Positions 24,601 through 58,909 of a DNA stretch of 64,000 nucleotides are shown here, piece by piece. This DNA comes from an uncultured virus (IMG/VR IMGVR_UViG_3300013105_000023) (Duplodnaviria; Heunggongvirae; Uroviricota; Caudoviricetes), in the IMG/VR virus record IMGVR_UViG_3300013105_000023; one strand, written 5' to 3'. Both the position numbers and the translations under genes were made by a program. Each line of letters begins with the position of its first letter. Position 1 is the first letter of the stretch. Under the pieces are notes generated by a model. The model did no database searches and had not been told where the DNA came from. It was given only the letters and a program-made list of their open reading frames with translations.

Positions 24601-27600
24601 AACCCAAGCGTGAAAGACGTGACGGTTACTGGTGTCAGCGTCCTGAGCTCAACGGATAACGCTGAGAAGATGAGTGAAACCACTTTCCGTGTTACTTCGG
24701 TATCACTGGATTCTCGTGGCGGTGCAGTCAAGCTGAAAGCCAGCGCCAGTGTTAATGGCGTCACGTGGCACCCTATGGAGCAATCCTTCACTCTGGCTCA
24801 GGCATCGGCACCGGTTGTCACCGGTCAGACCAAGATGCTGGTTGCCCGTCAGGAAGCTACCCTGCAGTTCTCTCTGACCCGTAATGGTCGTCCCGTGAAG
24901 GCGAATACCATCACGAATATCCGTGTGAGCGGAACTCCGGTTGCCAGCGCTAAGCAGGATCTGATCGTGGTCAACGCCGCAGCAGGCCAGTATGGCACGA
25001 CCGTGACGCCAAACGACCTCGGTGGCAACATCGACGTGATCTTCGACCTGAATGAAGGCGGAGTGGATTACCCGAACTTGACCTTCACCGGTACAGCGGA
25101 TATCTATCACCCGTGGAAAGCGACGATGCTGAACGGTCCGGTTCCGGAGCGCCTGACAGCAATCGACTTCTCGTCACATTTGGATGACGGCACCCCTGTT
25201 GCAATCACCAGCGGTACTGCGGTTATCACTGGCTCTTGCCTGGTGTCGCCAACCGCGGAAACCACCCTGGTTTACCAGGATGCGACCAACAAGACGTATC
25301 GCATTCCGAACGTCATGGTGAACAACACCGGTGGCAACATCCACGTTGTTCTGAAGGTCATCTACGAAGGTGCTGAAATCATTCAGGAATTCGACTTCAC
25401 CGTTAAGGCACTGCCTGTTCTGCAAGCAGCGGCGACCGGTGCAGATCTGCCGTTCCAGACCACCAGCGATTTGACGTTCACCGTGGACCGTGGCCCGAGC
25501 AACCCGTCGGTCTTCAATAACTCGATGGTGAAAAACCTGACCGTTACTGGTGCAGCGGTAGCCGGCTATACCCCGACGATCATCCAGGTTAGTCCGGGTA
25601 ACTTCAAGCTGTCCGTACAGACCAACGGCAAGGGTGGCACCATCAACGTGGGCTTCACAGTAACGCTGGCTGGTATCGACTACCCGCTGAGCTTCACGAA
25701 GCTGGCTGTTGTAGAGCCTCCGGTGACGGCGGTAAGCACCAACACGTTGGTGACCAACACGTCTGCCACTAACATGGACTTCACGTTAATGCGTGGAACG
25801 GTGCCGTGTGCCGACGCCTTCGTGGTCCAGAGCATCACGATGAACTCGAAGTCAGTGAGTTCGTACTCGCAGTCGATCATCAACGTGAACGTGGCACTCG
25901 GCCAGTATCGCATTCAGGTTACGACTTCGGCGTATTCTGATCCGATCCCTGTCACCATCGTCGGTACCGTTCGCGGTGAACCGGTAACGTTGACCTTTAC
26001 AGCTCAGATCCAAGCCGGTGTACTGCCGACGGTGACCCTACTGACATCATCTCTGTTCCGTGGCCAGGCGTCTAACGTCAACCTGTCCTTTAAGAATGGG
26101 ACTACGGATATCAACGGTGCGGTGACGCTGGATTCCGTTGACGGTCCGCTGACCAACCCAACGCTGAACTCAAACGGGGTGATCACCGGTATTCCAACTG
26201 TGGCAGGCGCCATCGACCTGACGATTAACTTCACCTGGAAGGGTGCAAGCTACTCATCGACTGTTACGGGCATCCCGGTGACTGAAGTGTACCCCGCGAC
26301 ACTGACCTCTACGTCGAAACTGACGGTAGGGAAGTTGAACACGACGACCTTCACAATGAACGGTGCGGATGGCAACGTGTACCCAGCTTCTGGTTTCACT
26401 TTCGCAATCACCGGCTCACCATTTGCCATGAGTCAGGCTCTGGCTCGCCAATCAGACGGCAGCTTCAGCGTTGGGTTCACGCCTTCGAGTGAAAGACTGT
26501 CTACCACGTTGACGATCGTTGTGACGGAAACGGCGACCAAAATCGTCCGCTACCACACCATTATGCTTGAAGCGTTACTGAGCCTGGAGGCCCGCTTCGT
26601 CGGCACTACGCCGCTGGATTCGTCTTCCCTGACCAACCAAGTGGTGTTCGACGTGTACAACACTGTGACGAATGCCGTCCAGGGGATCTACACCAAGGTC
26701 GACATGGACAGCTTGAAAGTCGTAGGCCGTGGCTCTGTAAATAACATCACCGGATGGTCAAGCTTCACTGTACCGGGAACCCCGACAGCGGCTCGCGGTT
26801 CTTTCTACGTGAGTGCTAACCAGGTTGACATCGTTGACGCCGACTACACTTTTGACTGGAACTCTGGTCTCCGTGTGTACAAGATCCCCGGTTCATTCCG
26901 TCTGCAGAAACCAATGACGGCTACCTGGACTGACATCGCGGGTGCTCAAGGTTCTGTTAAGAAAACGCTGAAAGTGAAGCTGCTTTCTGGCTCAACTCCA
27001 GTGGTCGACGCCCTTGATTCAGGAACGACGGTCACCAATGCCACAATCAATCAAAATCTTTATCTGATTGACGCAGCAACCGGAACCTACGGCATTGACG
27101 TGACACCCAACGGTGCAGCAACTTCAATGGTCGTGACCCTGAAGGTTAAACAGGCAGTCATGCCGTCAGTGATCAACACGTTCACCGCACAGACAGTTAC
27201 CGTTACTCCGGCACCGATCACGGCTGTTGCCAACAACGTTCTGGGTCGTCAGACTCAGAATACCGGCGTGCTCATGGAAGTCTTGATCTCTCAAGGCACC
27301 GTTCCGATTACCAATGCCGTAATCAACTCGTACAGCATTACAGGTCCTGCGGTTGAAAGCGTCTATTCAGGACCAACTAACGCCGGCAGCGGCCTGTATC
27401 GTTGGGCGGTAAGAACCCGTTTCGACGGTGCGGCTAACCCACAAGTCATGATCAACGCGACGATCAACGGCGTGGGCTACGTGTTCAACATTGATTTCCC
27501 AATCGTTCCGGTTCAAGTTCTGGCACTCTCTGTTGTTTCTAGCGATCCACTGGCTAAAAACATCAGCGGGAAAGTGACTCTTAACGCAACCCGAGACGGC

Positions 27601-42226: not shown

Positions 42227-42459
42227 TGCCAACTCTTGATGATGTAATGGCCAAACTGGAAGATATCCATTCCGATGTAAAAAAGGGTCTGGACTTCCTG
42301 TCCGAACTGCAAGGAGCCGCAATGGGTTCCTGGCAGTGGGACAAGAAAGCCGGCATTCTCCGCATGTACAATACCGAAGGGACAGAGATCGGGATCTTCT
42401 CCGTTTCTGACTCGCCGGATAAAGCCATGCGGGAACGCCGTACAGACCTGGAATCTTAA
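42226..42459 (+). CDS. Hypothetical protein
   Basis: 77 aa; GGAG SD; its stop overlaps the stop of the convergent E1 gene. Confidence 0.6.
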   Translation: MPTLDDVMAKLEDIHSDVKKGLDFLSELQGAAMGSWQWDKKAGILRMYNTEGTEIGIFSVSDSPDKAMRERRTDLES

Positions 42460-43499
42460 CGGATACCCAGGATAGTAGCCATCTGCGGGGAAACTCTTTC
42501 GAGCGTACCCGCTTCAAGCATATCATTTACCGATTTCACAATCGGATCCCAGAACTCTTCCTGACTTGATCCATAGACCGAATTCATCGTACGCGTTGAT
42601 ACGGGATACGCACGGACGTCTTCGTCAGGTTCCAAACGATGGCGGTTACCGGTCAGCACGCCTTCAATCCAGTCACGATCCAGACGCGTCTGGTCGTTCC
42701 CGTTATGAATATCGTAGAACCAGGTTTCCACTTTGATTGGCATCATCATGTAAATGTTCTGAAAGACAGAGAACATCGACATCGCCATGACCGCATTCAC
42801 TGCTGCCGTTTGTTCCAGGTCCGCACAGGAAGCATCTGGGTCCCCCTGGTAGCCAGAGGAACGCAGGTACTCCGCCATTGGACACGGAATGTAAGGCAGA
42901 GGGATGTCGGCATTGGCCGCTTTCTGCACCAGACGGTTGAGGATATCCAGATCCGCATCGGTATCCCGACGGGACAGCACACGGGACGAATACACACGGG
43001 TTTGGCCGAAGGTGTTTTCGTTACCGGCATCCACGATCAGATGCTCAATACCCGAACGCAGCGTCGACATGAGGATCGATTGGATGATCTCAAAGCGGGC
43101 CTTCATGTTATCAACGCACAGGAAGATAGTTGACGGACGATCGGTTACCAGACGCTGGAAGTTTTGGGGCACGTGGTTGGAAAGCCAATGGGACCAGTTA
43201 TCCGAATCCCGGAAGTAGTGCGGGATGCACACAATCGGGAGTTCGAATGCTGCACCGTAACGTTCAGCCAGACATTCAGCCTTGTTACGACCCACGTCGT
43301 CCACGATGAAGTTCTGACGGGTGAGGTTTTTGACTTCCACCTCGTCGCCGTCGATGAGAGTCATGGTGGGGACCAGATCGTTCCACTGACCGCGGGACAT
43401 AATCTGGCCGAGCATTGGCAGTAGGCGGCCACCGGTGCCGCCACAGCCTACCACCACCACATTATTCATAATCTGACGGTTTTTGTAGGAAAACATCAT
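42456..43499 (-). CDS. ThiF/E1-like ubiquitin-activating enzyme (PRTRC ThiF-like)
   Basis: VVVGCGGTG, DGDEVEVKNLTRQNF, GRNKA, CVDNMKAR, DAGNENTFGQ; candidate catalytic Cys in DASCADL. Confidence 0.9.
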   Translation of the reverse strand: MMFSYKNRQIMNNVVVVGCGGTGGRLLPMLGQIMSRGQWNDLVPTMTLIDGDEVEVKNLTRQNFIVDDVGRNKAECLAERYGAAFELPIVCIPHYFRDSDNWSHWLSNHVPQNFQRLVTDRPSTIFLCVDNMKARFEIIQSILMSTLRSGIEHLIVDAGNENTFGQTRVYSSRVLSRRDTDADLDILNRLVQKAANADIPLPYIPCPMAEYLRSSGYQGDPDASCADLEQTAAVNAVMAMSMFSVFQNIYMMMPIKVETWFYDIHNGNDQTRLDRDWIEGVLTGNRHRLEPDEDVRAYPVSTRTMNSVYGSSQEEFWDPIVKSVNDMLEAGTLERVSPQMATILGIR

Positions 43500-44701
43500 G
43501 CACTCCGAATGTCGAAATCTTTATTTAAACGCTCGATAACTCTGCGAGCTTCGCTTGCCGTGTTTACCACGAAGATGCCTTCCTGGAAGAGGATTTCATC
43601 ATCAACAACCGCACTTGCCAGCTCTTTGGCAACCGCAGCGTTCATTTCATCATCTTCTTCGTTGTAGACAGAGTTCATGAGATCGGTGACGGCATCATCG
43701 AAAGGAATATCGTCGGCCAAACCCAGGCTCAGTAGGTTGCTTCGTCCGAACTCCGGATCCAGAAAGTCTAGCGCTTCAGATCGCGCGGCCCCCGTGCTCG
43801 CCGTGTTTCCTTCCGCGTCCTGTCCTTGAAATCGGGCATTCCAATTGTCAATACCCTCCTCCGCTTCCTGCTCATACTGGCTTAACGCGTTGTAGCCACT
43901 GCCGACACGTGAACCACCACCGAACACTTTTGAGCCAGCTCCGGTAGGATTGCGATAGTCGTACCGCGGCGCCGGTGCCGTATAGCGCTGCACTTGCACG
44001 TTTCCCATCCAGCCTTCCACTTCCGGAGATACCGACTTTTCCGGCGTTGCGAAGAAGTCCTCCATGTTAAGGTTATTCACCTTGTCTTTGTACGCGTTGA
44101 AGCGCCAGATGACTTTCGGTGAGTTGGTATCCAGACGGCCGGCAACACCGGAGATGCCTGCGTACGTCTTGTCATCGCTCTCATCGGTGCCAGAGAAGAA
44201 GGCATCCATGGAGTTGTGCGAGTGGATGTCGAGGATAACCTCTTCATCTTCCTTCACGTGAGACCAGTCGTACGTTACGCGGGCTTTAGAGACCTGCTGG
44301 GTTGGGATTGCCACACGGTAAGACTCAGTGGTTTTGTTCCACACGATGTGGGCCATGGCTTCGTAATCACCGTGACCAGTACCGCTCGGAGGAACCATCG
44401 CCATCACTTTCTTAAAGAACCCCAGGATATCCGTCAGCATCTGCACCGGAATCTTCTGGTTGTTCACCAGCGGGTTCAGGTAAGGCTTCAGCTTGGATGC
44501 ACCCAGTTTGATAGGCAGCTCACCGACTTTGACCAGTGAAGAACGACCGAGGGAGAATTCATTGTAGCGGTACACCACCCCATCTTTAGCCAGGATGTGG
44601 ACAATCGGATCTTGCAGGAAGTTGCCGCCTTCAAAGTAGGCATCTTCACTGACCAGGCAGTTCATAAAAGGGACCAGCTGCATTACGCCATTAGTGCTCA
44701 T
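43496..44701 (-). CDS. JAB/MPN+ metallo-isopeptidase (PRTRC protein A-like)
   Basis: Upstream Glu (YEAMA) and DIHSHNSMDAFFSGTD (HxH-x7-S-x2-D); long acidic C-terminal extension. Confidence 0.88.
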   Translation of the reverse strand: MSTNGVMQLVPFMNCLVSEDAYFEGGNFLQDPIVHILAKDGVVYRYNEFSLGRSSLVKVGELPIKLGASKLKPYLNPLVNNQKIPVQMLTDILGFFKKVMAMVPPSGTGHGDYEAMAHIVWNKTTESYRVAIPTQQVSKARVTYDWSHVKEDEEVILDIHSHNSMDAFFSGTDESDDKTYAGISGVAGRLDTNSPKVIWRFNAYKDKVNNLNMEDFFATPEKSVSPEVEGWMGNVQVQRYTAPAPRYDYRNPTGAGSKVFGGGSRVGSGYNALSQYEQEAEEGIDNWNARFQGQDAEGNTASTGAARSEALDFLDPEFGRSNLLSLGLADDIPFDDAVTDLMNSVYNEEDDEMNAAVAKELASAVVDDEILFQEGIFVVNTASEARRVIERLNKDFDIRSA

Positions 44702-45480
44702 TCGTCTTCTTCCTCTTCATCATCGTTATCGTTGTCATCTTCGTCCAGTTCATCTGGGCTCTCGGTGACGGCAGTTGGGTAACCTGGCAGAATCCCGAAC
44801 GGGAACGCCTCTTTGTCTTTCAGGTAGCTGAACAGCTGGCTTGGAGACCAGCCGTCACGGGTGCGGGTGCCCAGGTCGTCGTTGAACGGCGAGGCCAGCA
44901 GCACGTGGTGATACACTTCGTTCAGACCACGAAGATCGGTGTCATACAGCGTGCGGTAGGAGTTCGCACCGACGCACATGTTGCCGTCACCATACTGGTT
45001 CGGGAACGGCAGTGCCCACAGACGGTTACGGTGGTTCTGAGCATTGGTACCCCAATCGTCCAGACTCGGGACCTCATCCTCTTTGTAATCCGTGCAGAAC
45101 CACTTCACCTGCTCCAGGGTCCAGCGGTTGTTGTTACTGTTGTGATTGAGCTTGCAGAAGATCACCGTCGGCGGCACCGGGCAGCGATACGTACCTTTGC
45201 CCCCGCGGGAACGGTTCGGTGCGTACTGCAGGTCGGCGATACGCTCTGGGAAGTACAGCAGCAGTTGCAGCTCCGTGCGGGAGCTCTTCATGGCCACGGT
45301 TTCGCTCGGCAGACGGAACGAACGCGTAGGTTCACGTTCCTGAGCCGCTTCCCCAGAGACAACCCGATCAAGCTCAGCCTTGAAGTCACCCATCGAGATG
45401 TTTTTGAAGGCACCCTGACCGTTCGGGACGCGAACGTGGTTTTCATACAGGGTGATTTGGATTCCTGAATTGTTACTCAT
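44698..45480 (-). CDS. Prokaryotic E2-like conjugating enzyme (Prok-E2 family D/PRTRC protein B-like)
   Basis: LWALPFPNQYGDGNMCVG parallels the E2 HPN...G.(I)C motif; SPFNDDL; acidic tail. Confidence 0.8.
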   Translation of the reverse strand: MSNNSGIQITLYENHVRVPNGQGAFKNISMGDFKAELDRVVSGEAAQEREPTRSFRLPSETVAMKSSRTELQLLLYFPERIADLQYAPNRSRGGKGTYRCPVPPTVIFCKLNHNSNNNRWTLEQVKWFCTDYKEDEVPSLDDWGTNAQNHRNRLWALPFPNQYGDGNMCVGANSYRTLYDTDLRGLNEVYHHVLLASPFNDDLGTRTRDGWSPSQLFSYLKDKEAFPFGILPGYPTAVTESPDELDEDDNDNDDEEEEDE

Positions 45481-45722
45481 ACGTAGTTGATCCTCGTACG
45501 AATTGCGGTGTATGGCCCAAAGTTGAACTCCATTGGGTTACGGCGGCGGCCGCTGTCCGGTGGGTTACGGGTCGTACGGAAAGTGATGTTACGCAACATC
45601 ATCATGCGTTGAAGCGGGGTGGTTTCCGGATTCAGCAATTGACGCTGCAGTTCTGCCATGACGACGGGACCGCTAGCTACGATCTCGCGGGCGTTCTGGA
45701 GCCCTTGTAATAGATCTTGCAT
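45477..45722 (-). CDS. Hypothetical protein in the Ubl operon
   Basis: 81 aa; AGGAG SD; overlaps both neighbours. Confidence 0.6.
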   Translation of the reverse strand: MQDLLQGLQNAREIVASGPVVMAELQRQLLNPETTPLQRMMMLRNITFRTTRNPPDSGRRRNPMEFNFGPYTAIRTRINYV

Positions 45723-46678
45723 ACGGAGAATGCTCCTAACTGTTTGAGAACATGAACGAAAGTGTCGAGATACTCGGTGACCACCGGTGTGTAGTTCATA
45801 CTCTGAGCCTCTCTTGCACGCTGGTTCGGTTGAACCTCAGTCTCTACTCGAGTTAAGGGACTGAAAGCGTCATAGACGAAAGCTAAGGATACGACCAGAG
45901 CACGGTAGCGTGTTCCGCGGTGTTGGCGAATAACCCGGTCATCGACAACGGACCACGTTGGTTTAGTTGCCGCAGCAATCTCTTCCAAGTGATCGAATGT
46001 TTTCGGGCAATAGACCAGGCGGACACCATGACGAATGGCCATGCTGTCAATGTAGCGAAGGTAACGGCGGACCAGAGGCGTGTCTTCTAAGTACACGCTG
46101 TAGGTTCTGACGCGGTCGGCCGGGTGTGCAGTGGACAGAAGCGTGTGATACGTTCCGGTCTCTGCCTCGGTGTAGACCAGCTCGTCATCCTGGAAGTGGT
46201 TATAGTCGGCGGAAGCGATAGTGTTATCGTTCCCGTTGATATGCAGTAGCGTGCGGATCGGATGTTTGATATCCTTGTGCACGAACTGCATCATCAACTC
46301 GAGCATACCCTGAACGCTTTCACCGCCACGACGAGAGAATGCGGCCACGACCGAACGATTATCGTGCTGGACGTACGGAACCATTTTCTCTTTGAAGAGG
46401 GCCGAGTTCAACTGATCGGCAGCCGTGTTCAGGTAAGAGAACCAGTGGCCGAGAGTGTTCAGGTTAGAGGCGGTTTCCGCCCCGGCGATAGCCCCGAACG
46501 CGTCGTCGACGTCGGACTGTGGGTGTACGGTGCCGCTGGGATTGACTCGCGTTCCCAAACCCACCTGGCCCAGAGACTCGAGGACCAATGCAGCTCGATG
46601 GTCTTCGGGATCCATAGGTTGGATGGCCATGTTACGGAATATCGTGCCGGCGGCGGAGGTGAAAAGTAAGTGGGACAT
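45677..46678 (-). CDS. Hypothetical protein in the Ubl operon
   Basis: 333 aa; GGAGG SD. Confidence 0.7.
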   Translation of the reverse strand: MSHLLFTSAAGTIFRNMAIQPMDPEDHRAALVLESLGQVGLGTRVNPSGTVHPQSDVDDAFGAIAGAETASNLNTLGHWFSYLNTAADQLNSALFKEKMVPYVQHDNRSVVAAFSRRGGESVQGMLELMMQFVHKDIKHPIRTLLHINGNDNTIASADYNHFQDDELVYTEAETGTYHTLLSTAHPADRVRTYSVYLEDTPLVRRYLRYIDSMAIRHGVRLVYCPKTFDHLEEIAAATKPTWSVVDDRVIRQHRGTRYRALVVSLAFVYDAFSPLTRVETEVQPNQRAREAQSMNYTPVVTEYLDTFVHVLKQLGAFSVCKIYYKGSRTPARS

Positions 46679-46693
46679 AAATCCTCCAGTAAC

Positions 46694-46730
46694 TAAAAAA
46701 AGAAAAGGAGCCCGAAGGCTCCTCTTTTTA
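46694..46730 (-). terminator. Intrinsic terminator between the Ubl gene and the enzyme genes
   Basis: Minus strand reads AGGAGCC-TTCG-GGCTCCT followed by TTTCTTTTTTT. Confidence 0.8.
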
Positions 46731-46745
46731 GACTAAGCCTTTGGC

Positions 46746-47129
46746 TTAGCCTTTAGTACCGGTACGGCGGGTAAAGTAGATGTGACGTACGCCGTCAACT
46801 TCTTCTTCGCGAGCATCCATAGATGCAGTCTGGAAAGCTGAGTCGAACTGACGTGCTGCGTCATCTTTGCTGATGTCCATACCGTCCAGAGTACGCGGAT
46901 CGCGGCCCGGGATGTGAACTACAGTGGAGTTCGCGCCTTTGGTGCCGGTGCGGCGGGTAAAGTAAATGTTGCGAACGTTACCGACCACTTCTTCGCGAGC
47001 ATCCATAGATGCAGTCTGGAAAGCTGAGTCGAACTGACGTGCTGCGTCATCTTTGCTGATGTCCATACCGTCGAGGGTACGAGCGTCACGGCCAGGAATG
47101 TGAACAACGGTAGAAGTGATAGTCGACAT
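46746..47129 (-). CDS. Tandem di-ubiquitin-like protein (PRTRC protein C-like), 127 aa
   Basis: Two near-identical units of 65 and 62 aa, each ending YFTRRTGTKG; AAGGA SD before ATG 47129. Confidence 0.85.
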   Translation of the reverse strand: MSTITSTVVHIPGRDARTLDGMDISKDDAARQFDSAFQTASMDAREEVVGNVRNIYFTRRTGTKGANSTVVHIPGRDPRTLDGMDISKDDAARQFDSAFQTASMDAREEEVDGVRHIYFTRRTGTKG

Positions 47130-47190
47130 CGGGTGTTTCCTTGTAGTTAAAAGTTTAGTTTTTACGGTGGTAGTATTCTTCACCACAGTT

Positions 47191-47219
47191 ATTATACCAA
47201 CGTATTCTAAAATATTGAA
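47191..47219 (-). promoter_or_regulatory. Sigma70-like extended -10 promoter for the Ubl operon
   Basis: Minus strand reads TTCAAT-17 nt-TATAAT, with TGG immediately before the -10 box. Confidence 0.65.
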
Positions 47220-47238: not shown

Positions 47239-48837
47239 ATGAAAAAAGCTACTTCGAGTCAATTGGCGGCTGCCTTGCTCGAACTGAAGGGGAAACCCAT
47301 CGATTTCGACAACTATCGGCCGTTCCGAAAGATCTACGATATCGATCCTGACATCATGGTGTTCAAAGCTGGACGCCAGATCGGGAAGTCAGTTTCACTC
47401 GGCGGACGTTTAGTGTCGAAGAGTATCGGCCGTGCGTACTTCAACTCACTGTACATCGCCCCGTTCCAGATCCAGGCGAAGCGTTTCTCGAATGCTTACC
47501 TTGACGCCTTCCTGGAATCGCCGCTCGTGAAGAAGTACTTCCGTAAGACAAGCGACACGAGCAACGTGTTCGAGAAGACTTTCTCTAACGGCTCAAAGAT
47601 TTACCTGTCGTATGCCCAGACCGAATCTGACGCCGACCGTATCCGTGGTCTGATGGCGGACCTGCTGACCGTCGACGAAGTCCAGGACGTCTCGTATGAC
47701 GCACTGCCCCCAATCTTCGAAATCCTGAACGCCTCGGAATACGCCCTGAAGGTCCTGGCCGGCACGTCCAAGTCTTCGGCGAACACCTTGGAGCAGCTGT
47801 GGCTCCGTACCAACCGTCTGGAGTGGGCCACCAAGTGCACCCACTGTAACCACTGGGTCATCCCACGGGATTACGAGACGTGCATTGCGATCTGTAAACC
47901 TCAGGGCCCATCCTGTGACAAGTGCGGTGGGTTGATCGACGTCGGTACCGGCCAGTGGATTGCCACGAACCCGAGCATCAAGAACCGTGTGGGCTTCCAC
48001 CTTCCGCAGCTCATCGTCGGTGACAACTGCCGTCCGAAGAAGTGGGCTCGTCTGGTCGATAAAGTCCAACAGGCTCAGGAAGGCGGTCTCTATACGCCAG
48101 CCACGCTGGCCAACGAAGTGTTCGGTCTGGCGACAGACCTCTCCGGCCGTTCCCTGTCGATGCAGGAAGCGATGAACTGCTGTGTTCCCGAGTGGAAAGG
48201 CTGGGCGTCCCCGACCGACTTCTCGAACAAAGTCTGGGCCGCGATTGCCCCGACGATCACCCGTACCGTTCTGGGCGTCGACTGGTCCGTTACCGGTGGT
48301 GTTAAGTCCTATACTGTTGCCTCCGTTCTGGGGTATGATGGGTACGGTAAATGCTACCTGCTTGAATCCCGCAAGATGCAGGGTATTCACATTCTGAGCC
48401 AGGTAGAGGAAGTTTGTAAGCTTGCCCTGAAGTGGAACTGTGCGATCGTCGGTTCTGACCGTGGCGTCGGTGTTCTGCAGGGACAGTTGATGCAGAAAGA
48501 ATTAGGCCACAACAAAGTCATCATGATCAACTACGTGGCGGCCAAGAAGCGTCTGCGTTGGGATGGCGAAGGTCAATACCTCGCAGCCGACCGCTCACAG
48601 GCGATCGACAACGTGATGATGAAATGGCGTCTCGGCCAGCGTTCCTTTGTGGCGCCGTGCTGGGAAGTGACCGAAGGTATGTGGACGGATGCGTTGAACG
48701 TGTTCGAAGAAGAGACTAACGTGGGTCGCCGCGTGTACCGTCACCACCCGGATGAGCCGGATGATTGGATGCACTCTGTGGTATTCGGCAACGTTGCCTA
48801 CCAATACCTGAGCGGTGATTTCTCGTATACTGAGTAA
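47239..48837 (+). CDS. terL: Terminase large subunit
   Basis: Walker A GRQIGKS, Walker B LTVDE, GTSK coupling motif, CxxC ribbons, nuclease LGVDW and PDDWMHS. Confidence 0.88.
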   Translation: MKKATSSQLAAALLELKGKPIDFDNYRPFRKIYDIDPDIMVFKAGRQIGKSVSLGGRLVSKSIGRAYFNSLYIAPFQIQAKRFSNAYLDAFLESPLVKKYFRKTSDTSNVFEKTFSNGSKIYLSYAQTESDADRIRGLMADLLTVDEVQDVSYDALPPIFEILNASEYALKVLAGTSKSSANTLEQLWLRTNRLEWATKCTHCNHWVIPRDYETCIAICKPQGPSCDKCGGLIDVGTGQWIATNPSIKNRVGFHLPQLIVGDNCRPKKWARLVDKVQQAQEGGLYTPATLANEVFGLATDLSGRSLSMQEAMNCCVPEWKGWASPTDFSNKVWAAIAPTITRTVLGVDWSVTGGVKSYTVASVLGYDGYGKCYLLESRKMQGIHILSQVEEVCKLALKWNCAIVGSDRGVGVLQGQLMQKELGHNKVIMINYVAAKKRLRWDGEGQYLAADRSQAIDNVMMKWRLGQRSFVAPCWEVTEGMWTDALNVFEEETNVGRRVYRHHPDEPDDWMHSVVFGNVAYQYLSGDFSYTE

Positions 48838-54734: not shown

Positions 54735-55407
54735 TTTAGGTGTTCGTTCCTACGCCAACTCGATGTTGATCGAGAACCTGTTCCGTCAGCGGGCCATGCC
54801 AGACCTGCTGCCGAACGTGAAATCCTTCACGACCCGCATCCTGATGCCGAGCGTGAAGATCGTCGAGGATGATTGTCACACGTTGATTGGCCGTAACGTC
54901 TCGGCCGATGACTATTCCATGGTGGGCTTGCTCGCCTTGGATACCGACGAGATCATCGATGAAGCGTACGTCGTGGAACGTTACAAGAAGAACATTTTCA
55001 CGATTCGCGTGCGTGACACGTGTGCATGTACCAGTACCGGTGGCATTTGTCGTAAGTGCTTGCACGGGACGTTTATCCGTTTGGGTATCAAGGACGATGT
55101 TCCGGCGGTGGGTTCCACCATCCGCATGCCAGTGGAGTCCTCGTCGTACCTGAACGCTCTGGCCAAGACTTACAGTGGCGCCCTGCTCGGGGTAAAACCC
55201 ATGGCGGCAGCGCCATTGCCGATCCGTCCTGATTTATACGGTGGGATGGTGACCCACGAGGAAATGACAATGGTTATCCGTGAGATGGCGTCTTTAAAAA
55301 TCCCAACAGATGAGGTAGACTACCTCAATGGGATTCACGACAAATTCGAACGTGCCCTAGCGATTGTTGCTTACTACGGAGTCTACGGTAATGCGTTTAG
55401 AAAATAG
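54727..55407 (+). CDS. Truncated RNA polymerase beta'-like Zn-binding paralog
   Basis: IVEDDCHT..G...TDEIIDE...VRDTCACTSTGGICRKCLHG aligns with VVTEADCHT..G...TDRLIDE...VRNTMTCQAKDGVCQKCYG of 7315-9135. Confidence 0.75.
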   Translation: MSNLGVRSYANSMLIENLFRQRAMPDLLPNVKSFTTRILMPSVKIVEDDCHTLIGRNVSADDYSMVGLLALDTDEIIDEAYVVERYKKNIFTIRVRDTCACTSTGGICRKCLHGTFIRLGIKDDVPAVGSTIRMPVESSSYLNALAKTYSGALLGVKPMAAAPLPIRPDLYGGMVTHEEMTMVIREMASLKIPTDEVDYLNGIHDKFERALAIVAYYGVYGNAFRK

Positions 55408-58400
55408 TCTTGGCGGGGATAACATTTACACCAACTTTCGGGTGTACGTGGAAGGGGTAGAAATCCCCTTCTCTTCAGCCAATATCTCCAACTCCTATGG
55501 TGGCCTCCCAACGGCCACCGTTTACGTTGCCCCTTGGCGTGGCTTCACGGAGATCACGAAGGGATACTTCCCGAAAATCCAGATCTTCTACCGTGACTTC
55601 AACCAGGGCCTGGCACCGTACGACGTTAAACGGCTGATCAGCACCATTCCGGATATTGAAGGTGCCGAAGAACGACTCGAAAACGCCAAAGAGACCTTCA
55701 ACAAGGTCGAGCGTAACGCGTACAAACTGCTGTTCGACGGCGTTATTGCCAGCGTCCAGGACTCCAAGAGCCTGGGTGGCGACGGCGGCCAGTCTTCTAT
55801 GGCGTTCAACTGCGTCCACCCTCACTATTTGCTGAACGAAATCCTCTTCAAGTTCATCGGGACCAACCCGGAGACCGAGACGGCGAAGGATTCTGCGTTC
55901 GGGATCATGGTCGACGGCGGTAACGTCGGTTCAGTCTTTGCCATTGAGCAAGCCTTGGCCGGTGTCCACGAGCCACGCGACGGGGATAAGACCCTGGAAG
56001 CCGGTGGCAGTGACACGTCAGTGCTCTCAGAAGGCATGCAGGACAACTATTGGCGCCTTCAAGGCATGCCCGGTGTCATTGTGGCCATGTGGAACTCCCT
56101 GAAACGCTCGGCTTACTCCGCGGCGTCGCAGGAAGACAAGTCGATCATGACCAAAATGTACATTCCGCTGTTAGAAGACGGCTTGAAGTACTTCAACCGC
56201 ATGACGGGCCACCCGGTAATCGAAGGAGCGATCCAAAAGGACGCTCAGATCGCCCCGACGCCTGCTCCAACGGTGACGCAGACAGCAGAAAGCAACACGA
56301 CACCAACCGGAAAGCTTCCCGAGCCGCCAAAAGGCACCCTCGGACAGAAGTTCATGTCGGATAAAGGTAAAAAAGAGCTGATTGAGTTCTCTGAAGGCCG
56401 TCGTTACCGTCTTTACGACGATGCTACCGGCAAAGAGATCACTTTCGCGGCCGATGCAGTGGGTACGCCGACCATCGGTGTAGGTCATGCCGTGAAGAAA
56501 ACGGATACCACCTACGATAAAGTCACTCTTTCGGACTTGGACATCGATAAACTGCTGAGCCAAGACGTGGCGTCGGCGACACAGGCTGTAAACAACCTGG
56601 GATTAACCCTGTCACAGGGTCAGTTTGACGCTCTCGTGGACCTGACGTTTAACGTTGGCCCTGGTGCCAAGGGCGGTAAGGACGGAGCACTGTGGCAGGC
56701 AAGCGGCGAACCGTCAACGATCGTCCGTTTGATCACCGAAGGGAACACCCAAGGCGCTGCTGACGGCTTCCTCGCGTGGACCAAAGCGGGTGGATCGGTA
56801 TCTCAAGGTCTGGTGACCCGCCGTTCACGCGACCGTTCATTCTTCCTGGATGCTCCGCTGCCCTCCTCCCAGGAGTTGGCAAACCAAGCCGCCGCGGCCA
56901 AAGGGACCACCGAAGAGATGTCGAACAACAACGGCAAACTCGTCCCGGCCAACCTGAATGGCTTGATGCCGCGTGCCATGGCCGAACAGCTGCTGCACAT
57001 CATGTCCAACGATCTGATGTCAGGCGGTACCGGTGAAGTGACGTCGTTTGGTTCGTTCATTCAGCAGTTCCTGCAGATCATCGAGTACGATCACGTCATC
57101 CTAAGCTCGCCGGCAGTACTGGGTATCGCGGGCCGCCGTGAAGTCATCGACCACGTGTTTAAACCGAAGATGTTTGCGTACTATTCACCGATCTGTAACG
57201 TCATTCTGCCACACATGTACGAATCGATGAGTGTGAACCTCGGGACAGACCAAGTGCCTTCCCGTGTGATCTACAACGCGATGCCGTTCCAAGCGGACTC
57301 GGCCATGAATGCCACGACCGATGTGTTCGCCCACAACTTCATTGCCCCACACTCTGTCCGTAAGGCGCTGGCCAACGGCGGTAACCTGTCCAAGACGTTG
57401 CTCCCAATGCGTGCGACCCCTGGCAAATACGAGTGGGCGAGCGGTGTGCGGACGGCGGACGGTAACCTGCCATTCTGGTACAGCGTGCTGTCTCAGCAGT
57501 CTGAATCAGCGAACGTCGGCGACTTGGCAGACAAAGACACCGGTGCCCGCCTTAAAGCGGCATGGTTGAAGCTGTATCCAGAAGACCCGAACCTGAACCC
57601 GTGGGACGTGACGCTGGCGGGAATCAACGCGTATGAACGCTTGTTCTTCACCGGTGTCGACGTGGAATACTCGAACATCTACTCGTCCGCCCGCTCTGGC
57701 GTCGTGGATGGCGTGTTCAACCCGTTCATCATCCCGGGTTACCCAATGGACGTGGTCGATCCGTCGCCGCTCCGTGAGTCATACCACGGTTTCTGCACCA
57801 GCGTGAACCACTCAATCGATGCATCGGGCTACTCTTCGACCAACATTGGGATGAGCTCTGCGTACACCTTCTCGGAATTGGCCACGTGCTACATCCCGGG
57901 AACGTATCCGTGGCTGCTCGCTCAGTTGAAGATGGATGAAAACCTGAAGATGTACGGCAATACGCCTGCTTTCCAGCGTGCCTGCCAGTACTACGTTGAC
58001 GTGCTCGGCGTCGGTGCAGCAGATCCGACCATCCTCGAAGCGTACTCAACCGGTAGACCAATCCCGGTGACGCGTAACATGGGTGTCTGGGAGATCGGTG
58101 GCTCAGAGGCCGTGAATGATCCGTCTCGCCCAACGCTCTACACGACGGCACTCGGTAACCTGAACCTCGTGGCCCGCAACATCTCGACGCTTCTGGATGT
58201 TCAGATGGAACACAGCGTTCTGGCTGAAACTTTCGTGGATATCGACATGTGGAACCAAGGGTCACCGACCGTGGAAGAAGTCCGCAAGGGTCCGTGGGTG
58301 AATGACGGCAAGACCGCATCGAGCAGTACGCTGCGGGGTCGCGACATGGAGTCTTCGGCGTTCATCGACTACGAGTTCGACGGCGAGACGCCAGATCCAA

Positions 58401-58909
58401 TCGTGAACGGCGGTCCACGTGATACCAACACGTCTCCGACGCCAGGTGCTCCGATCACCAGCGATGAGAATGCGGCCAAGAGTCTGCCGGCCACGCCAAC
58501 CGTTCTGCCTAAACTAGGTAAGCGGTGCTCGGTAGGCGTACTGGACTCGTCTTCACAGTCGATTCTGGCCTCCTGTCACCCGGATCTGATTAAGGTCGTG
58601 ATGAAAGTCATCGAGACTCGCCCTGTGGTCGTCACCAGCGGTTACCGCTCTGGCGCCAAGCAGCAAGCCCTCGAGAACGACGCGTCGTCTTACGCTCAAG
58701 GTGCTGGCAACGGCTCTCGCCACCGTAAGTACCCGTCATGGGCGGTGGACATGGTGCCGTGCAACGATCTGCATGCATCTTCACGTGCGGTGATGAGTAA
58801 CTTCGCCCAGTACGTACTGCAAGTCGGGAACTCACTCGGCGTCAAGCTGCGTTGGGGCGGGAACTTCTCAACCTATGATCCGGTGCACTTCGACTTAGGC
58901 CTCGGTTAA
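55391..58909 (+). CDS. Baseplate hub protein with GH24 lysozyme insert and C-terminal M15-type peptidase
   Basis: Hub-like N-terminus (FRVYVEGVEIP) and NPFIIPGYP. Lysozyme motifs: EG..Y.D..TIGVGH, QGQFDALV..TFNVG, GLVTRR. Peptidase motifs: TSGYRS, SRH..AVD, WGGNF..DPVHF. Confidence 0.8.
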   Translation: MRLENSLGGDNIYTNFRVYVEGVEIPFSSANISNSYGGLPTATVYVAPWRGFTEITKGYFPKIQIFYRDFNQGLAPYDVKRLISTIPDIEGAEERLENAKETFNKVERNAYKLLFDGVIASVQDSKSLGGDGGQSSMAFNCVHPHYLLNEILFKFIGTNPETETAKDSAFGIMVDGGNVGSVFAIEQALAGVHEPRDGDKTLEAGGSDTSVLSEGMQDNYWRLQGMPGVIVAMWNSLKRSAYSAASQEDKSIMTKMYIPLLEDGLKYFNRMTGHPVIEGAIQKDAQIAPTPAPTVTQTAESNTTPTGKLPEPPKGTLGQKFMSDKGKKELIEFSEGRRYRLYDDATGKEITFAADAVGTPTIGVGHAVKKTDTTYDKVTLSDLDIDKLLSQDVASATQAVNNLGLTLSQGQFDALVDLTFNVGPGAKGGKDGALWQASGEPSTIVRLITEGNTQGAADGFLAWTKAGGSVSQGLVTRRSRDRSFFLDAPLPSSQELANQAAAAKGTTEEMSNNNGKLVPANLNGLMPRAMAEQLLHIMSNDLMSGGTGEVTSFGSFIQQFLQIIEYDHVILSSPAVLGIAGRREVIDHVFKPKMFAYYSPICNVILPHMYESMSVNLGTDQVPSRVIYNAMPFQADSAMNATTDVFAHNFIAPHSVRKALANGGNLSKTLLPMRATPGKYEWASGVRTADGNLPFWYSVLSQQSESANVGDLADKDTGARLKAAWLKLYPEDPNLNPWDVTLAGINAYERLFFTGVDVEYSNIYSSARSGVVDGVFNPFIIPGYPMDVVDPSPLRESYHGFCTSVNHSIDASGYSSTNIGMSSAYTFSELATCYIPGTYPWLLAQLKMDENLKMYGNTPAFQRACQYYVDVLGVGAADPTILEAYSTGRPIPVTRNMGVWEIGGSEAVNDPSRPTLYTTALGNLNLVARNISTLLDVQMEHSVLAETFVDIDMWNQGSPTVEEVRKGPWVNDGKTASSSTLRGRDMESSAFIDYEFDGETPDPIVNGGPRDTNTSPTPGAPITSDENAAKSLPATPTVLPKLGKRCSVGVLDSSSQSILASCHPDLIKVVMKVIETRPVVVTSGYRSGAKQQALENDASSYAQGAGNGSRHRKYPSWAVDMVPCNDLHASSRAVMSNFAQYVLQVGNSLGVKLRWGGNFSTYDPVHFDLGLG

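What the first reader, a model, noticed from the sequence alone, without database searches (positions are those of the whole stretch)
42456..47219. Phage-encoded complete ubiquitin-like conjugation operon (Ubl, two unknown ORFs, E2, JAB, E1)
Seen: six minus-strand genes under one promoter, the last five translationally coupled, inserted among + strand virion genes next to terL. They include an E1/ThiF with nucleotide-binding motif and candidate Cys, an E2-like PFPN..G..C, a JAB HxH-x7-S-x2-D, and a Ubl ending in Gly. Established: these families match the PRTRC (ParB-related, ThiF-related cassette) system, known mostly from bacterial plasmids and ICEs and functionally unresolved, whereas characterised bacterial E1/E2/JAB systems (CBASS Cap2/Cap3, Bil) are host anti-phage defences. 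Inference: here the virus carries writer and eraser with no ParB or CD-NTase in the window. It may tag host or phage proteins, or remove or decoy host Ubl-based defences.
Basis: partly seen in the sequence, partly recalled or inferred. Interest (0 to 1): 0.95.

Follow-up and report, generated by a model that had tools for sequence, protein, structure and literature searches.

The report
Phage-borne ubiquitin-like tagging operon
A group of large Salmonella and Vibrio phages carries its own set of genes for attaching a small ubiquitin-like protein to other proteins, a diverged relative of a plasmid gene cassette whose purpose is still unknown.

Summary
Six minus-strand genes at 42456-47219 sit beside terL in an Arash-like myophage of about 176-183 kb. 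They encode a tandem di-Ubl, two clade-specific proteins (333 and 81 aa), an E2-like protein with an invariant Cys, a JAMM/JAB peptidase and a ThiF-type E1.

Profile-profile comparison links four of them to the PRTRC core: Ubl 89%, E2 88%, JAB 96%, E1 97%. Gene order also matches (C, variable slot, B, A, ThiF). None reaches an NCBIfam cut-off, and the nearest complete genome has no ParB. The E2 model's best structural matches are eukaryotic E2s, at weak Z (5.5 or less). I could not model the Ubl fold.

- The Ubl is a head-to-tail repeat. It is triple with a C-terminal cap in Vibrio phages and single in other relatives, which suggests polyubiquitin-like precursors cut by the JAB.
- A conserved terminator separates the Ubl gene from the five enzyme genes.
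- The Ubl promoter is the only TTCAAT-N17-TATAAT site in the 176-kb related genome.
- The 333-aa protein occurs only in this phage clade and has no recognisable fold.

The operon is syntenic in every relative examined and under purifying selection. Canonical PRTRC cassettes are already annotated in temperate phages. This is therefore a new variant of a known kind, with targets and role unknown.

The parts
47191..47219 (-). Sigma-70-like promoter: TTCAAT, 17-nt spacer, extended -10 TGGTATAAT
   Evidence: Read. Conserved in 7 of 7 loci printed. TTCAAT-N16-18-TATAAT occurs once, and TGNTATAAT twice, in the 176,323-bp related genome. Exact TGGTATAAT occurs once in the window. This is a consensus match only; no expression data.
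46746..47129 (-). Tandem di-Ubl gene (127 aa). Unit 1 is 46935-47129 and unit 2 is 46749-46934; each ends in TGTKG, and unit 2 is followed directly by the stop codon
   Evidence: TRF period 186, 1.9 copies; alignments. hhalign against PRTRC_C/Prok_Ub gives 89%, E 2.3e-6 over 66 columns. NCBIfam PRTRC_C E 0.033. ESM Atlas lead to a Prok_Ub cluster, score 0.85. dN/dS 0.10. Fold not modelled.
46693..46726 (-). Intrinsic-terminator-like hairpin (10 pairs) plus T-run between the Ubl gene and p333; likely attenuator
   Evidence: Present with different stem sequences in 7 of 7 loci folded (-23 to -30 kcal/mol for the intergenic stretches). Function inferred.
45677..46678 (-). p333: clade-specific 333-aa protein with an N-terminal helical bundle and a C-terminal alpha/beta domain. 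It occupies the slot that PRTRC protein F holds in plasmids
   Evidence: 33 homologues by word search. An exhaustive profile search of 1.84 billion representatives found only 6, all E 1.9e-60 or better. AF2 pLDDT 85.4, pTM 0.84. No informative fold match. hhalign against F-slot proteins 0.4-1.4%.
45477..45722 (-). p81: 81-aa protein whose start overlaps the p333 3' end by 46 nt; conserved N-terminal MQDLLQ and a C-terminal aromatic plus Val/Ile
   Evidence: No family hit.
44698..45480 (-). E2-like protein (260 aa): UBC-like core at about residues 52-234, invariant C169 in PFPNQYGDGxMC, acidic C-terminal tail
   Evidence: Alignment of 30 sequences. AF2 pLDDT 81.4. In VIA wide, rows 1-22 all carry E2/UBC titles, Z 5.5-3.8; E2s recur in pdb_via at Z 3.4 or less. 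Prok-E2_D is sub-threshold in 19 of 30 members. hhalign against PRTRC_B 88%, E 3e-6, with the Cys aligned.
43496..44701 (-). JAB/JAMM metallopeptidase (401 aa) with a 113-aa N-terminal domain and a variable, partly low-complexity C-terminal half
   Evidence: Prok-JAB 31.8 bits; PRTRC_A 74.3 bits, below cut-off 101.8. Invariant E114, HxH-x7-S-xx-D. hhalign against phage Dina PRTRC_A 96%, JAB domain only.
42456..43499 (-). ThiF-type E1 (347 aa): GCGGTG loop, RQ and DN..R motifs, invariant Cys206 and Cys225
   Evidence: PF00899 E 1e-12; PRTRC_ThiF 56.1 bits, below cut-off 144.75. Alignment. hhalign against Dina PRTRC ThiF 97% over residues 13-230, with Cys225 opposite a Cys.

Best explanation
This is a phage-encoded ubiquitin-like conjugation cascade that descends from the core of the PRTRC cassette (Ubl, variable slot, E2, JAB, E1). 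It has lost ParB and the other PRTRC accessory proteins and has become a fixed part of a clade of large myophages.

Proposed mechanism, step by step:
1. The Ubl gene is transcribed from its own sigma-70-like promoter. Most transcripts stop at the hairpin behind it, so Ubl is made in excess while read-through supplies the five translationally coupled downstream genes (inferred).
2. The Ubl is made as a head-to-tail precursor. The JAB metallopeptidase cuts after each TGTKG to expose the C-terminal Gly (inferred from the architecture).
3. The ThiF-type E1 adenylates that Gly, possibly forming a thioester on Cys225.
4. The Ubl passes to Cys169 of the E2-like protein and from there to lysines of target proteins.
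5. The JAB can also reverse the modification.
6. The clade-specific p333 and p81 are the likeliest specificity factors or first substrates (inferred).

Shown here: the genes, their catalytic motifs, their homology to PRTRC components, their conservation and the purifying selection on them. Not shown: any enzymatic step, the Ubl fold, the targets, or the timing of expression.
For: - Catalytic motifs are intact and invariant in E1, E2 and JAB across relatives at 44-76% identity.
- The E2 model's best structural matches are E2 enzymes: rows 1-22, best Z 5.5, rmsd 3.9 A over 123 residues.
- Profile-profile links to PRTRC C/B/A/ThiF are 89/88/96/97%, and gene order is the same.
- All Ubl units end in TGTKG. 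The gene is single in 5 loci, double in 3 (window, L003, L004), and triple in Vibrio phage D69 with linkers and a 5-residue C-terminal cap. The cap and internal junctions would need endoproteolysis at the Gly.
- In L004 the two units are identical in protein but only 88% identical in DNA over the last 180 nt. This points to strong purifying selection rather than a recent duplication.
- The operon is syntenic beside terL in 8 of 8 IMG/VR loci (JAB and E1 are missing only where contig L010 ends) and is present in Arash.
- dN/dS is 0.04-0.10.
- Promoter and terminator are conserved in 7 of 7 loci.
- In phage Arash the E1, JAB, E2 and p333 homologues were detected by LC-MS in sucrose-gradient particles at 430, 369, 226 and 379 spectra (PMC10585845 Table 2, passages read). 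I assigned the rows by matching coverage to protein length by hand: 267/346, 253/412 and 244/320. The E2 row, at 100% coverage, cannot be checked that way and follows from the +1 numbering shift those matches imply.
Against: - No biochemical or expression data exist for this window.
- The Ubl fold was not modelled. Its sequence links are modest: PRTRC_C E 0.033, hhalign 89%, no Pfam Prok_Ub hit.
- The structural support for the E2 is weak in absolute terms. Z is 5.5 or less, Foldseek found nothing at E 0.001 or better, and the tool warns that Z under 8 can be a common arrangement.
- All NCBIfam PRTRC scores are below cut-off.
- The canonical E2 His is replaced (FPN instead of HPN), and the downstream His of Iyer's class 6d is not invariant here.
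- Multi-beta-grasp Ubls of Bil and Bub operons act as single units, not as precursors (PMC11601603, passages read), so the repeats need not be cleaved.
- The Ubl and p81 are not listed in the Arash particle proteome, which also lists ribonucleotide reductases and other non-structural enzymes.
Confidence: 0.62

Rival explanations
1. Role variant: the cascade serves virion morphogenesis. The Ubl marks or cross-links a structural protein, or chaperones assembly as proposed for the lambda tail-assembly Ubl and JAB pair. The enzymes associate with particles.
For: The operon sits among virion genes beside terL in 8 of 8 IMG/VR loci. E1, JAB, E2 and p333 homologues were found in Arash particle preparations at hundreds of spectra. 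There is a phage precedent: a Ubl plus a JAB in lambdoid tail-assembly clusters (PMC1779556, sections read).
Against: The operon is on the opposite strand from the structural block and has its own host-type promoter. In Vibrio phage D69 it follows co-oriented small genes, one annotated as a RecBCD inhibitor, and no terminase is annotated within about 5 kb. The Arash proteome lists 116 proteins including metabolic enzymes, so presence there is weak evidence. The Ubl itself is not listed.
Confidence: 0.2
2. Role variant: it is a counter-defence or host-takeover device. The phage tags host proteins early in infection, or its JAB or Ubl interferes with host Ubl-based immunity such as Bil or CBASS Cap2/Cap3.
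For: The Ubl gene has a host-type promoter that is unique in the 176-kb related genome. The operon has the same orientation as the non-structural gene blocks. In D69 it is adjacent to a gene annotated as a RecBCD inhibitor. Bacterial Ubl systems are known anti-phage defences (PMC10557695 and PMC11601603: abstracts in search listings, passages of the latter).
Against: There is no similarity to Bil, Bub or Cap3 components beyond the generic E1 nucleotide-binding region (PADLOC). Fixed position and universal presence in the clade are unusual for accessory anti-defence genes, which tend to vary (established knowledge, not tested here). No timing data exist.
Confidence: 0.25
3. There is no protein conjugation. 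The E1 and Ubl act as an adenylation or sulfur-carrier pair like ThiF-ThiS or MoeB-MoaD, or the cassette is a selfish PRTRC remnant of no use to the phage.
For: The E1 also hits ThiS/MoaD adenylyltransferase models at low scores. PRTRC function is unknown, and some plasmid cassettes lack protein A.
Against: An E2-like protein with an invariant Cys and a JAMM peptidase with an intact site are retained over long divergence. No rhodanese domain was found on the E1, and none of the six proteins hit a biosynthetic family. dN/dS of 0.04-0.10 and strict synteny argue against a decaying passenger.
Confidence: 0.08

Closest known systems
PRTRC system (NCBIfam TIGR03734-03742), which I read as operon class 6d of Iyer, Burroughs and Aravind 2006. 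It is found on plasmids and ICEs and in temperate phages such as Ralstonia phage Dina
   Same: Core gene order is the same: Ubl (C), variable slot, E2 (B, Prok-E2_D), JAB (A), ThiF E1. Profile-profile homology holds for all four core proteins. The Ubl is about 65 aa and ends G-x-K-G. The E2 lacks the canonical His. In phage Dina the PRTRC_C protein also carries a C-terminal extension after GRKG, which would need processing.
   Different: All scores are below the curated cut-offs. There is no ParB. None of the six proteins hits PRTRC D, E or F, and p333 shows no likeness to F. The slot holds the clade-specific p333 and p81. The JAB N-terminal domain is not detectably DUF2016. The Ubl occurs as tandem repeats. 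The cassette is fixed in a lineage of 172-187 kb phages; for Arash the authors found no lysogeny genes (passage).
PRTRC-like cassette in a Deltaproteobacteria MAG (locus L085)
   Same: Order is identical: Ubl (63 aa, ending GTKG), two small ORFs, E2, JAB, E1. Its E2 matches the phage E2 profile at 96%, E 2.2e-9. Its E1 is the best cellular match to the phage E1 profile.
   Different: It lies closer to canonical PRTRC: ThiF 126.6 bits and Prok-E2_D 37.6 bits, the latter above cut-off. It has a single Ubl and no p333 homologue.
Bacterial Ubl defence systems: Bil, Bub and CBASS Cap2/Cap3
   Same: They share the logic of an E1-E2-peptidase cascade that conjugates a Gly-terminated modifier. Some of their Ubls have two or three beta-grasp domains (PMC11601603).
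   Different: No PADLOC model matches any protein here except generic E1 similarity to Cap2 (best E 1.8e-7, residues 12-84). E1 and E2 are separate proteins. There is no CD-NTase. In this operon every repeat carries the same C-terminal motif, which fits a precursor rather than a multi-domain unit.
Eukaryotic polyubiquitin precursor genes
   Same: Both have head-to-tail repeats of a strongly conserved modifier. In Vibrio phage D69 a short C-terminal cap must be removed. Synonymous divergence between repeats whose protein sequences are identical is seen in L004.
   Different: There is no detectable sequence relationship to ubiquitin. The presumed processing enzyme is a JAMM peptidase encoded in the same operon. 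Cleavage has not been shown.
Lambda/T1 tail-assembly Ubl (protein I) with JAB+NlpC (protein K)
   Same: A Ubl with a C-terminal Gly and a JAB peptidase are encoded by a phage (PMC1779556).
   Different: Those clusters have no E1 or E2; the Ubl there is a domain of an assembly protein.

Membership tests
PRTRC system (NCBIfam) | ThiF-family protein above the TIGR03736 cut-off (144.75 bits) | tested here: not met
   56.1 bits. Homology is still clear: hhalign 97% against the phage Dina PRTRC ThiF.
PRTRC system (NCBIfam) | Protein A (JAB) above the TIGR03735 cut-off (101.8 bits) | tested here: not met
   74.3 bits, covering profile positions 94-185 of 192. hhalign 96% for the JAB domain only.
PRTRC system (NCBIfam) | Protein B (E2, Prok-E2_D) above the TIGR03737 cut-off (131.45 bits) | tested here: not met
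   No hit for the window protein; 2 of 30 homologues hit, with best E-value 0.16. Pfam Prok-E2_D 18.5 bits, below 25. hhalign against a PRTRC_B alignment 88%, E 3e-6.
PRTRC system (NCBIfam) | Protein C (Prok_Ub) above the TIGR03738 cut-off (45.95 bits) | tested here: not met
   14.3 bits, E 0.033. No Pfam Prok_Ub hit. hhalign against a PRTRC_C alignment 89%, E 2.3e-6, end to end.
PRTRC system (NCBIfam) | Associated ParB-family protein (TIGR03734) | tested here: not met
   0 matches at E 1 or better for TIGR03734 and for Pfam ParB_N in the complete 176,323-bp genome that is 95% identical over the operon. The window itself was not scanned with these models.
PRTRC system (NCBIfam) | Proteins D, E and F | tested here: not met
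   None of the six operon proteins hits these models. p333 against F-slot proteins scores 0.4-1.4% by hhalign. The rest of the genome was not scanned for D and E.
PRTRC system / Iyer 2006 class 6d operon | Gene order Ubl, additional protein(s), E2, JAB, E1 | tested here: met
   Window order compared with phage Dina and with Cupriavidus, Aromatoleum and Sphingobium plasmids.
Iyer 2006 class 6d operon | E2-like protein with a conserved Cys, lacking the canonical His, with a conserved His further downstream | tested here: inconclusive
   C169 is invariant and FPN replaces HPN. The downstream His (YHH) varies among the 30 sequences. The HPN spacing of canonical E2s is recalled, not taken from a call.
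Iyer 2006 class 6d operon | JAB with the JAB-N (DUF2016) N-terminal domain | tested here: inconclusive
   A conserved 113-aa N-terminal domain exists, but there is no DUF2016 hit and hhalign to Dina protein A covers the JAB domain only.
UBC/E2 fold | Helix, beta-meander, Cys loop and helices, superposable on solved E2s | tested here: met
   AF2 pLDDT 81.4. In VIA wide, rows 1-22 are all E2/UBC entries: Z 5.5-3.8, about 115-129 residues aligned, rmsd 3.3-4.8 A. The Z values are weak and Foldseek found nothing.
JAMM/JAB metallopeptidase | E ... HxH-x7-S-xx-D metal and catalytic motif | tested here: met
   E114, H160, H162, S170 and D173 are invariant in 7 of 7 sequences. Prok-JAB scores above cut-off.
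Beta-grasp Ubl (Prok_Ub) | Beta-grasp fold with an exposed C-terminal Gly | not testable with these tools
What is shown is the C-terminal Gly and profile homology to Prok_Ub members.
Bil / Bub / CBASS type II (PADLOC models) | Matches to the systems' E2, Ubl, peptidase or CD-NTase models | tested here: not met
   Only the E1 hits Cap2 'E1-E2' models, through its nucleotide-binding region. No SMODS domain is found in the related genome.

The most novel reading that the evidence does not exclude
The phage runs a virus-owned ubiquitin-like writing system on the infected cell. E1, E2, JAB and p333 travel with the particle, or are made at once. The Ubl is produced in bulk from the only host-type promoter in the genome, as a polyubiquitin-like precursor. 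Host or phage proteins are tagged within minutes of infection to redirect the cell or blunt its defences. If so, this would be the first functional handle on the unexplained PRTRC family.
Probability: 0.15. Interest if true: 0.9.

Novelty: new variant of a known kind. Interest (0 to 1): 0.72.

Why it matters
PRTRC-type cassettes are common: PRTRC_C alone is found in 254 plasmid records. Yet no function has been shown for them, as PMC13366799 states. In my five literature searches the only phage-borne case of this E1/E2/JAB/Ubl cascade was that paper's annotation-level note of a PRTRC cassette in a Burkholderia gladioli prophage. None concerned a large phage like this one.

In this clade the core cascade is stripped of ParB and fixed in phages that infect hosts from Salmonella to Vibrio. 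One member, Arash, is in culture and its proteins have been seen by mass spectrometry. That makes three things directly testable: whether PRTRC-type enzymes conjugate proteins, what they modify, and whether viruses of bacteria use Ubl tagging for their own ends rather than only suffering it from host defences such as Bil. The tandem Ubl genes would also be a prokaryotic-virus parallel to polyubiquitin precursors.

Tried and rejected
- **E2 model:** Foldseek against PDB gave no match at E 0.001 or better.
- **p333 model:** Foldseek against PDB and BFVD gave none. VIA wide gave only generic three-helix-bundle matches to residues 1-120, best Z 5.3. pdb_via gave best Z 4.1.
- **PDB sequence searches with profiles:** E2 none; p333 best E 0.16; Ubl best E 0.41.
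- **Family libraries:** PHROGs had no family for any of the six proteins. PADLOC matched nothing except generic E1 similarity. NCBIfam scans of 34 p333 and 30 E2 homologues gave no meaningful family.
- **ESM Atlas:** nothing for p333 and only a lead for the Ubl.
- **p333 comparisons:** no similarity to the L085 200-aa ORF or to PRTRC F-slot proteins.
- **Single-sequence hhalign to phage Dina:** E2 and Ubl comparisons were not significant. Only alignments on both sides gave signal.
- **Word search with the Dina Prok_Ub domain:** no candidates.
- **Arash 'structural protein' labels:** rejected as proof of virion location, because 116 of 272 proteins, ribonucleotide reductases among them, are in that list.
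- **Clostridial JAB-ThiF pairs on mobile elements:** 120 relatives were found, 80 kept and 8 inspected. They are more distant. Where an E2 was found it mostly lies 4-6 kb away (adjacent in L011, L054, L075 and L085), and no Gly-terminated Ubl was evident.

Full report
**What is there**

The window is part of a large myophage genome. A 6.9-kb stretch around the finding matches Salmonella phage Arash (180,819 bp) at 72.6% identity over 41% of its length. It also matches an IMG/VR genome of 176,323 bp with direct terminal repeats at 95% over the whole operon. Between the plus-strand virion genes and terL (47239-48837; PHROG terminase large subunit, E 6.6e-43) lie six minus-strand ORFs:
- Ubl, 46746-47129
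- p333, 45677-46678
- p81, 45477-45722
- E2-like, 44698-45480
- JAB, 43496-44701
- E1, 42456-43499

The last five overlap by 46, 4, 4 and 4 nt. The E1 stop overlaps the stop of a convergent plus-strand gene by 4 nt.

**The enzymes**

The E1 hits Pfam ThiF (E 1e-12). It carries the GCGGTG loop, the RQ and DN..R motifs and two invariant cysteines, C206 and C225. C225 lines up with a Cys of the PRTRC ThiF protein of Ralstonia phage Dina (hhalign 97%).

The JAB protein scores above the Prok-JAB cut-off (31.8 bits against 25). It has an invariant E114 and H160-x-H162-x7-S170-xx-D173.

The 260-aa protein hits Prok-E2_D only below threshold: 18.5 bits, with 19 of 30 homologues at E 0.1 or better. An AlphaFold2 model built on 30 sequences (pLDDT 81.4, pTM 0.69) found nothing with Foldseek. 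In the Foldseek-independent VIA search, however, rows 1-22 all carry E2/UBC titles. The best is 5a31_Q, with Z 5.5 and rmsd 3.9 A over 123 residues, spanning model residues 52-234. E2s also recur in the second look. These Z values are low, and the tool itself warns about values under 8. I therefore read this as a diverged UBC-like core, not as proof. The invariant C169 sits in PFPNQYGDGxMC. From memory, the P-N-x4-G-x2-C spacing equals that of the HPN...C loop of canonical E2s; that comparison comes from no call.

**The Ubl**

The first gene is a tandem duplication: period 186 nt, 1.9 copies, 87% matches. Its two units, of 65 and 62 residues, each end in TGTKG, and the second is followed directly by the stop codon.

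Relatives vary in copy number:
- L005-L009 and Arash carry one unit of 65-66 aa.
- L003 and L004 carry two.
- Vibrio phage D69 carries three, separated by linkers and followed by a five-residue cap.

In L004 the two units are identical in protein but 88% identical in DNA over their last 180 nt. Orthologous units are slightly closer to each other than paralogous ones: 0.833 and 0.839 against 0.811 and 0.817. The duplication is therefore old and both copies are held by selection.

Sequence links to known Ubls are modest:
- PRTRC_C, E 0.033.
- No Pfam Prok_Ub hit.
- An ESM Atlas lead to a cluster in which 32% of members carry Prok_Ub, score 0.85.
- An end-to-end profile-profile match to seven PRTRC_C proteins: 89%, E 2.3e-6, 66 columns, with the G-x-K-G ends aligned.

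I could not model the fold.

**The two unknowns**

p333 has 33 homologues in the word-indexed search. An exhaustive profile search of 1.84 billion representatives found only 6, all at E 1.9e-60 or better. The family is therefore confined to this phage clade as far as HMMER can see. Its model is confident (pLDDT 85.4, pTM 0.84) and shows an N-terminal helical bundle followed by an alpha/beta domain. Neither PDB nor BFVD gave an informative match.

p333 occupies the slot that PRTRC protein F (Pfam alpha-hel2) holds in plasmids and in phage Dina, but it shows no similarity to F. That slot also varies among plasmids. Sphingobium has a 74-aa and a 269-aa hypothetical protein there, and a Pseudomonas aeruginosa plasmid has a 455-aa one.

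p81 has a conserved N-terminus and a conserved C-terminal aromatic plus Val/Ile. It has no family.

**Regulatory signals**

Upstream of the Ubl ATG lie TTCAAT, a 17-nt spacer and TGGTATAAT (47219-47191). They are conserved in 7 of 7 loci printed. In the 176-kb related genome this -35/-10 combination occurs once, and TGNTATAAT occurs only twice.

Between the Ubl stop and the p333 start there is a 10-pair GC-rich hairpin plus a T-run (46726-46703). It is present in 7 of 7 loci with different stem sequences. I infer a strongly expressed Ubl transcript, with attenuated read-through into the five enzyme genes. No expression data could be obtained.

In the whole related genome the operon is a minus-strand island inside the plus-strand structural block. 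It has the orientation of the non-structural gene blocks.

**Conservation**

All 8 IMG/VR loci found with the E2 profile carry the operon next to terL. JAB and E1 are missing only in L010, where the contig ends. Identity to the window over L004-L010 is 68-83% for the Ubl, 32-49% for p333, 37-70% for p81, 44-75% for E2, 48-75% for JAB, 59-76% for E1 and 83-98% for terL. The top of each range is L004, the closest relative after the near-identical L003. dN/dS against L003 is 0.10 (Ubl), 0.07 (p333), 0.04 (E2) and 0.10 (E1).

In the phage collection, the E2 is found in 4 records (Arash and Vibrio phages D69, D181 and D148, about 187 kb). The JAB is found in 10, including temperate Ralstonia and Burkholderia phages with canonical PRTRC.

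**Relation to PRTRC**

In Ralstonia phage Dina, RefSeq annotates PRTRC proteins E, C, F, B, A and ThiF in that order. Pfam reads C as Prok_Ub (88 bits), F as alpha-hel2, B as Prok-E2_D (155 bits) and A as DUF2016 plus Prok-JAB. The same C-F-B-A-ThiF order holds in Cupriavidus and Aromatoleum plasmids.

The phage proteins are homologous to C, B, A and ThiF by profile-profile comparison, but every NCBIfam score is below its cut-off. A Deltaproteobacteria MAG locus, L085, is an intermediate. It has the same order and a Ubl ending GTKG, with ThiF at 126.6 bits, PRTRC_A at 73 and PRTRC_B at 30. No ParB, ParB_N or SMODS match exists in the related complete genome. I therefore treat the operon as a diverged, ParB-less offshoot of the PRTRC core, not as a member.

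I take PRTRC to be operon class 6d of Iyer et al. 2006 (section read). That class has a small Gly-terminated Ubl, a helical protein, an E2-like protein without the usual His, a JAB with an N-terminal domain, and an E1.

**Protein-level evidence from a relative**

The Arash paper (PMC10585845; passages and Table 2 read) lists proteins found by LC-MS in sucrose-gradient particles. Its numbering is one higher than GenBank's. I worked this out by hand, because the coverage values fit GenBank lengths only with that shift:
- 77.17% = 267/346 (E1)
- 61.41% = 253/412 (JAB)
- 76.25% = 244/320 (p333 homologue)
- 80.50% = 128/159 (the neighbouring 159-aa protein)

The E2 row, at 100% coverage, cannot be checked this way; its assignment follows from the shift.

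On that reading, E1 (430 spectra), JAB (369), E2 (226, 100% coverage) and p333 (379) were detected, while the Ubl and p81 are not listed. The list holds 116 proteins, including ribonucleotide reductases. The authors themselves allow for carry-over of abundant proteins. This shows expression, not virion location. The paper's supplements were not opened.

**Most likely mechanism**

I favour a conjugation cascade. JAB matures the tandem or capped Ubl precursor at TGTKG. E1 adenylates the Gly. The Ubl moves to E2 Cys169 and then to target lysines. JAB can reverse the modification. p333 and p81 provide specificity or are the substrates.

The main evidence is as follows:
- Three intact catalytic sites are retained from Salmonella phages to Vibrio phages.
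- The Ubl is under ubiquitin-like sequence constraint.
- The precursor architectures make sense only with endoproteolysis at the Gly.

The main weaknesses:
- There is no biochemistry for this system or for any PRTRC.
- The Ubl fold is unmodelled.
- The structural Z-scores for the E2 are weak.
- Multi-domain Ubls in Bil and Bub operons are not cleaved (PMC11601603).

**Role**

The role is open. Position beside terL and detection in the particle fraction favour morphogenesis or packaging. The opposite strand, the unique host-type promoter and, in D69, upstream co-oriented small genes that include one annotated as a RecBCD inhibitor favour an early, host-directed or counter-defence role. Universal presence and fixed position argue against a dispensable passenger.

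**Novelty**

In five literature searches the only phage-borne case of this cascade was PMC13366799, which reports a PRTRC cassette in a Burkholderia gladioli prophage at annotation level and states that the function is unstudied. No paper described one in a large phage like this one. RefSeq already annotates PRTRC in phage Dina. The family and its presence in phages are therefore known. What is new:
- the ParB-less diverged form, fixed in a clade of 172-187 kb phages;
- the polyubiquitin-like Ubl genes;
- the promoter and terminator design;
- the clade-specific p333 and p81.

Noticed in passing
window 43496-44701 (JAB), residues about 205-340: The JAB protein is only 85% identical to its L003 counterpart, while Ubl, E1, E2, p333 and p81 are 98-100% identical. 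The differences cluster in the low-complexity C-terminal half. This may be a recombination or hypervariable segment.
   Followed up: partly
L091 (Vibrio phage D69) 5992-7008: The E1 reading frame is open for about 85 codons upstream of the annotated ATG and encodes the GCGGTG loop, but it holds no ATG, GTG or TTG. The annotated CDS is therefore N-terminally truncated, or a non-standard start or re-initiation is used.
   Followed up: partly
PMC10585845 Table 2 against OQ632216 (L001): Protein numbers in the Arash paper's proteome table appear shifted by +1 relative to GenBank locus tags. I inferred this from coverage fractions that fit GenBank lengths only with the shift. GenBank 'structural protein' labels agree with the table only in part.
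   Followed up: partly
G001 position 135252 (minus strand): This is the only other TGGTATAAT in the 176-kb related genome. Its downstream gene was not examined.
   Followed up: no
window 47165-47187 (minus strand): A short hairpin lies in the Ubl 5' leader just after the -10 box. Relatives have a different sequence at the same place that also looks self-complementary (seen by eye, not folded or tested). It may be an mRNA-stabilising or regulatory stem.
   Followed up: no
L012-L084, L086-L090 (Oscillospiraceae and other Clostridia genomes): JAB-ThiF gene pairs distantly related to the phage's occur on apparent mobile elements. They sit next to VWA, DNA polymerase III beta-like, serine recombinase or integrase and DUF6094 methyltransferase genes, often in several copies per genome. 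Where an E2-like gene was found, it mostly lies 4-6 kb away.
   Followed up: partly
L092 3384-3773 (Ralstonia phage Dina PRTRC_C): The annotated protein is 129 aa. Prok_Ub covers residues 2-64 and ends in GRKG, followed by a 62-residue extension. Canonical PRTRC Ubls can therefore also be precursors that need C-terminal processing.
   Followed up: partly
L085 2436-4133: A caspase-like protein (EACC1-associated type, E 2.9e-15) is encoded just upstream of the PRTRC-like cassette in the Deltaproteobacteria MAG.
   Followed up: no
window 21697-29766 and 55364-58909: There is a 2689-aa ORF, and a 1181-aa ORF with two endolysin-type domains (PHROGs 7 and 465) in the virion block. Neither was analysed further.
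   Followed up: no
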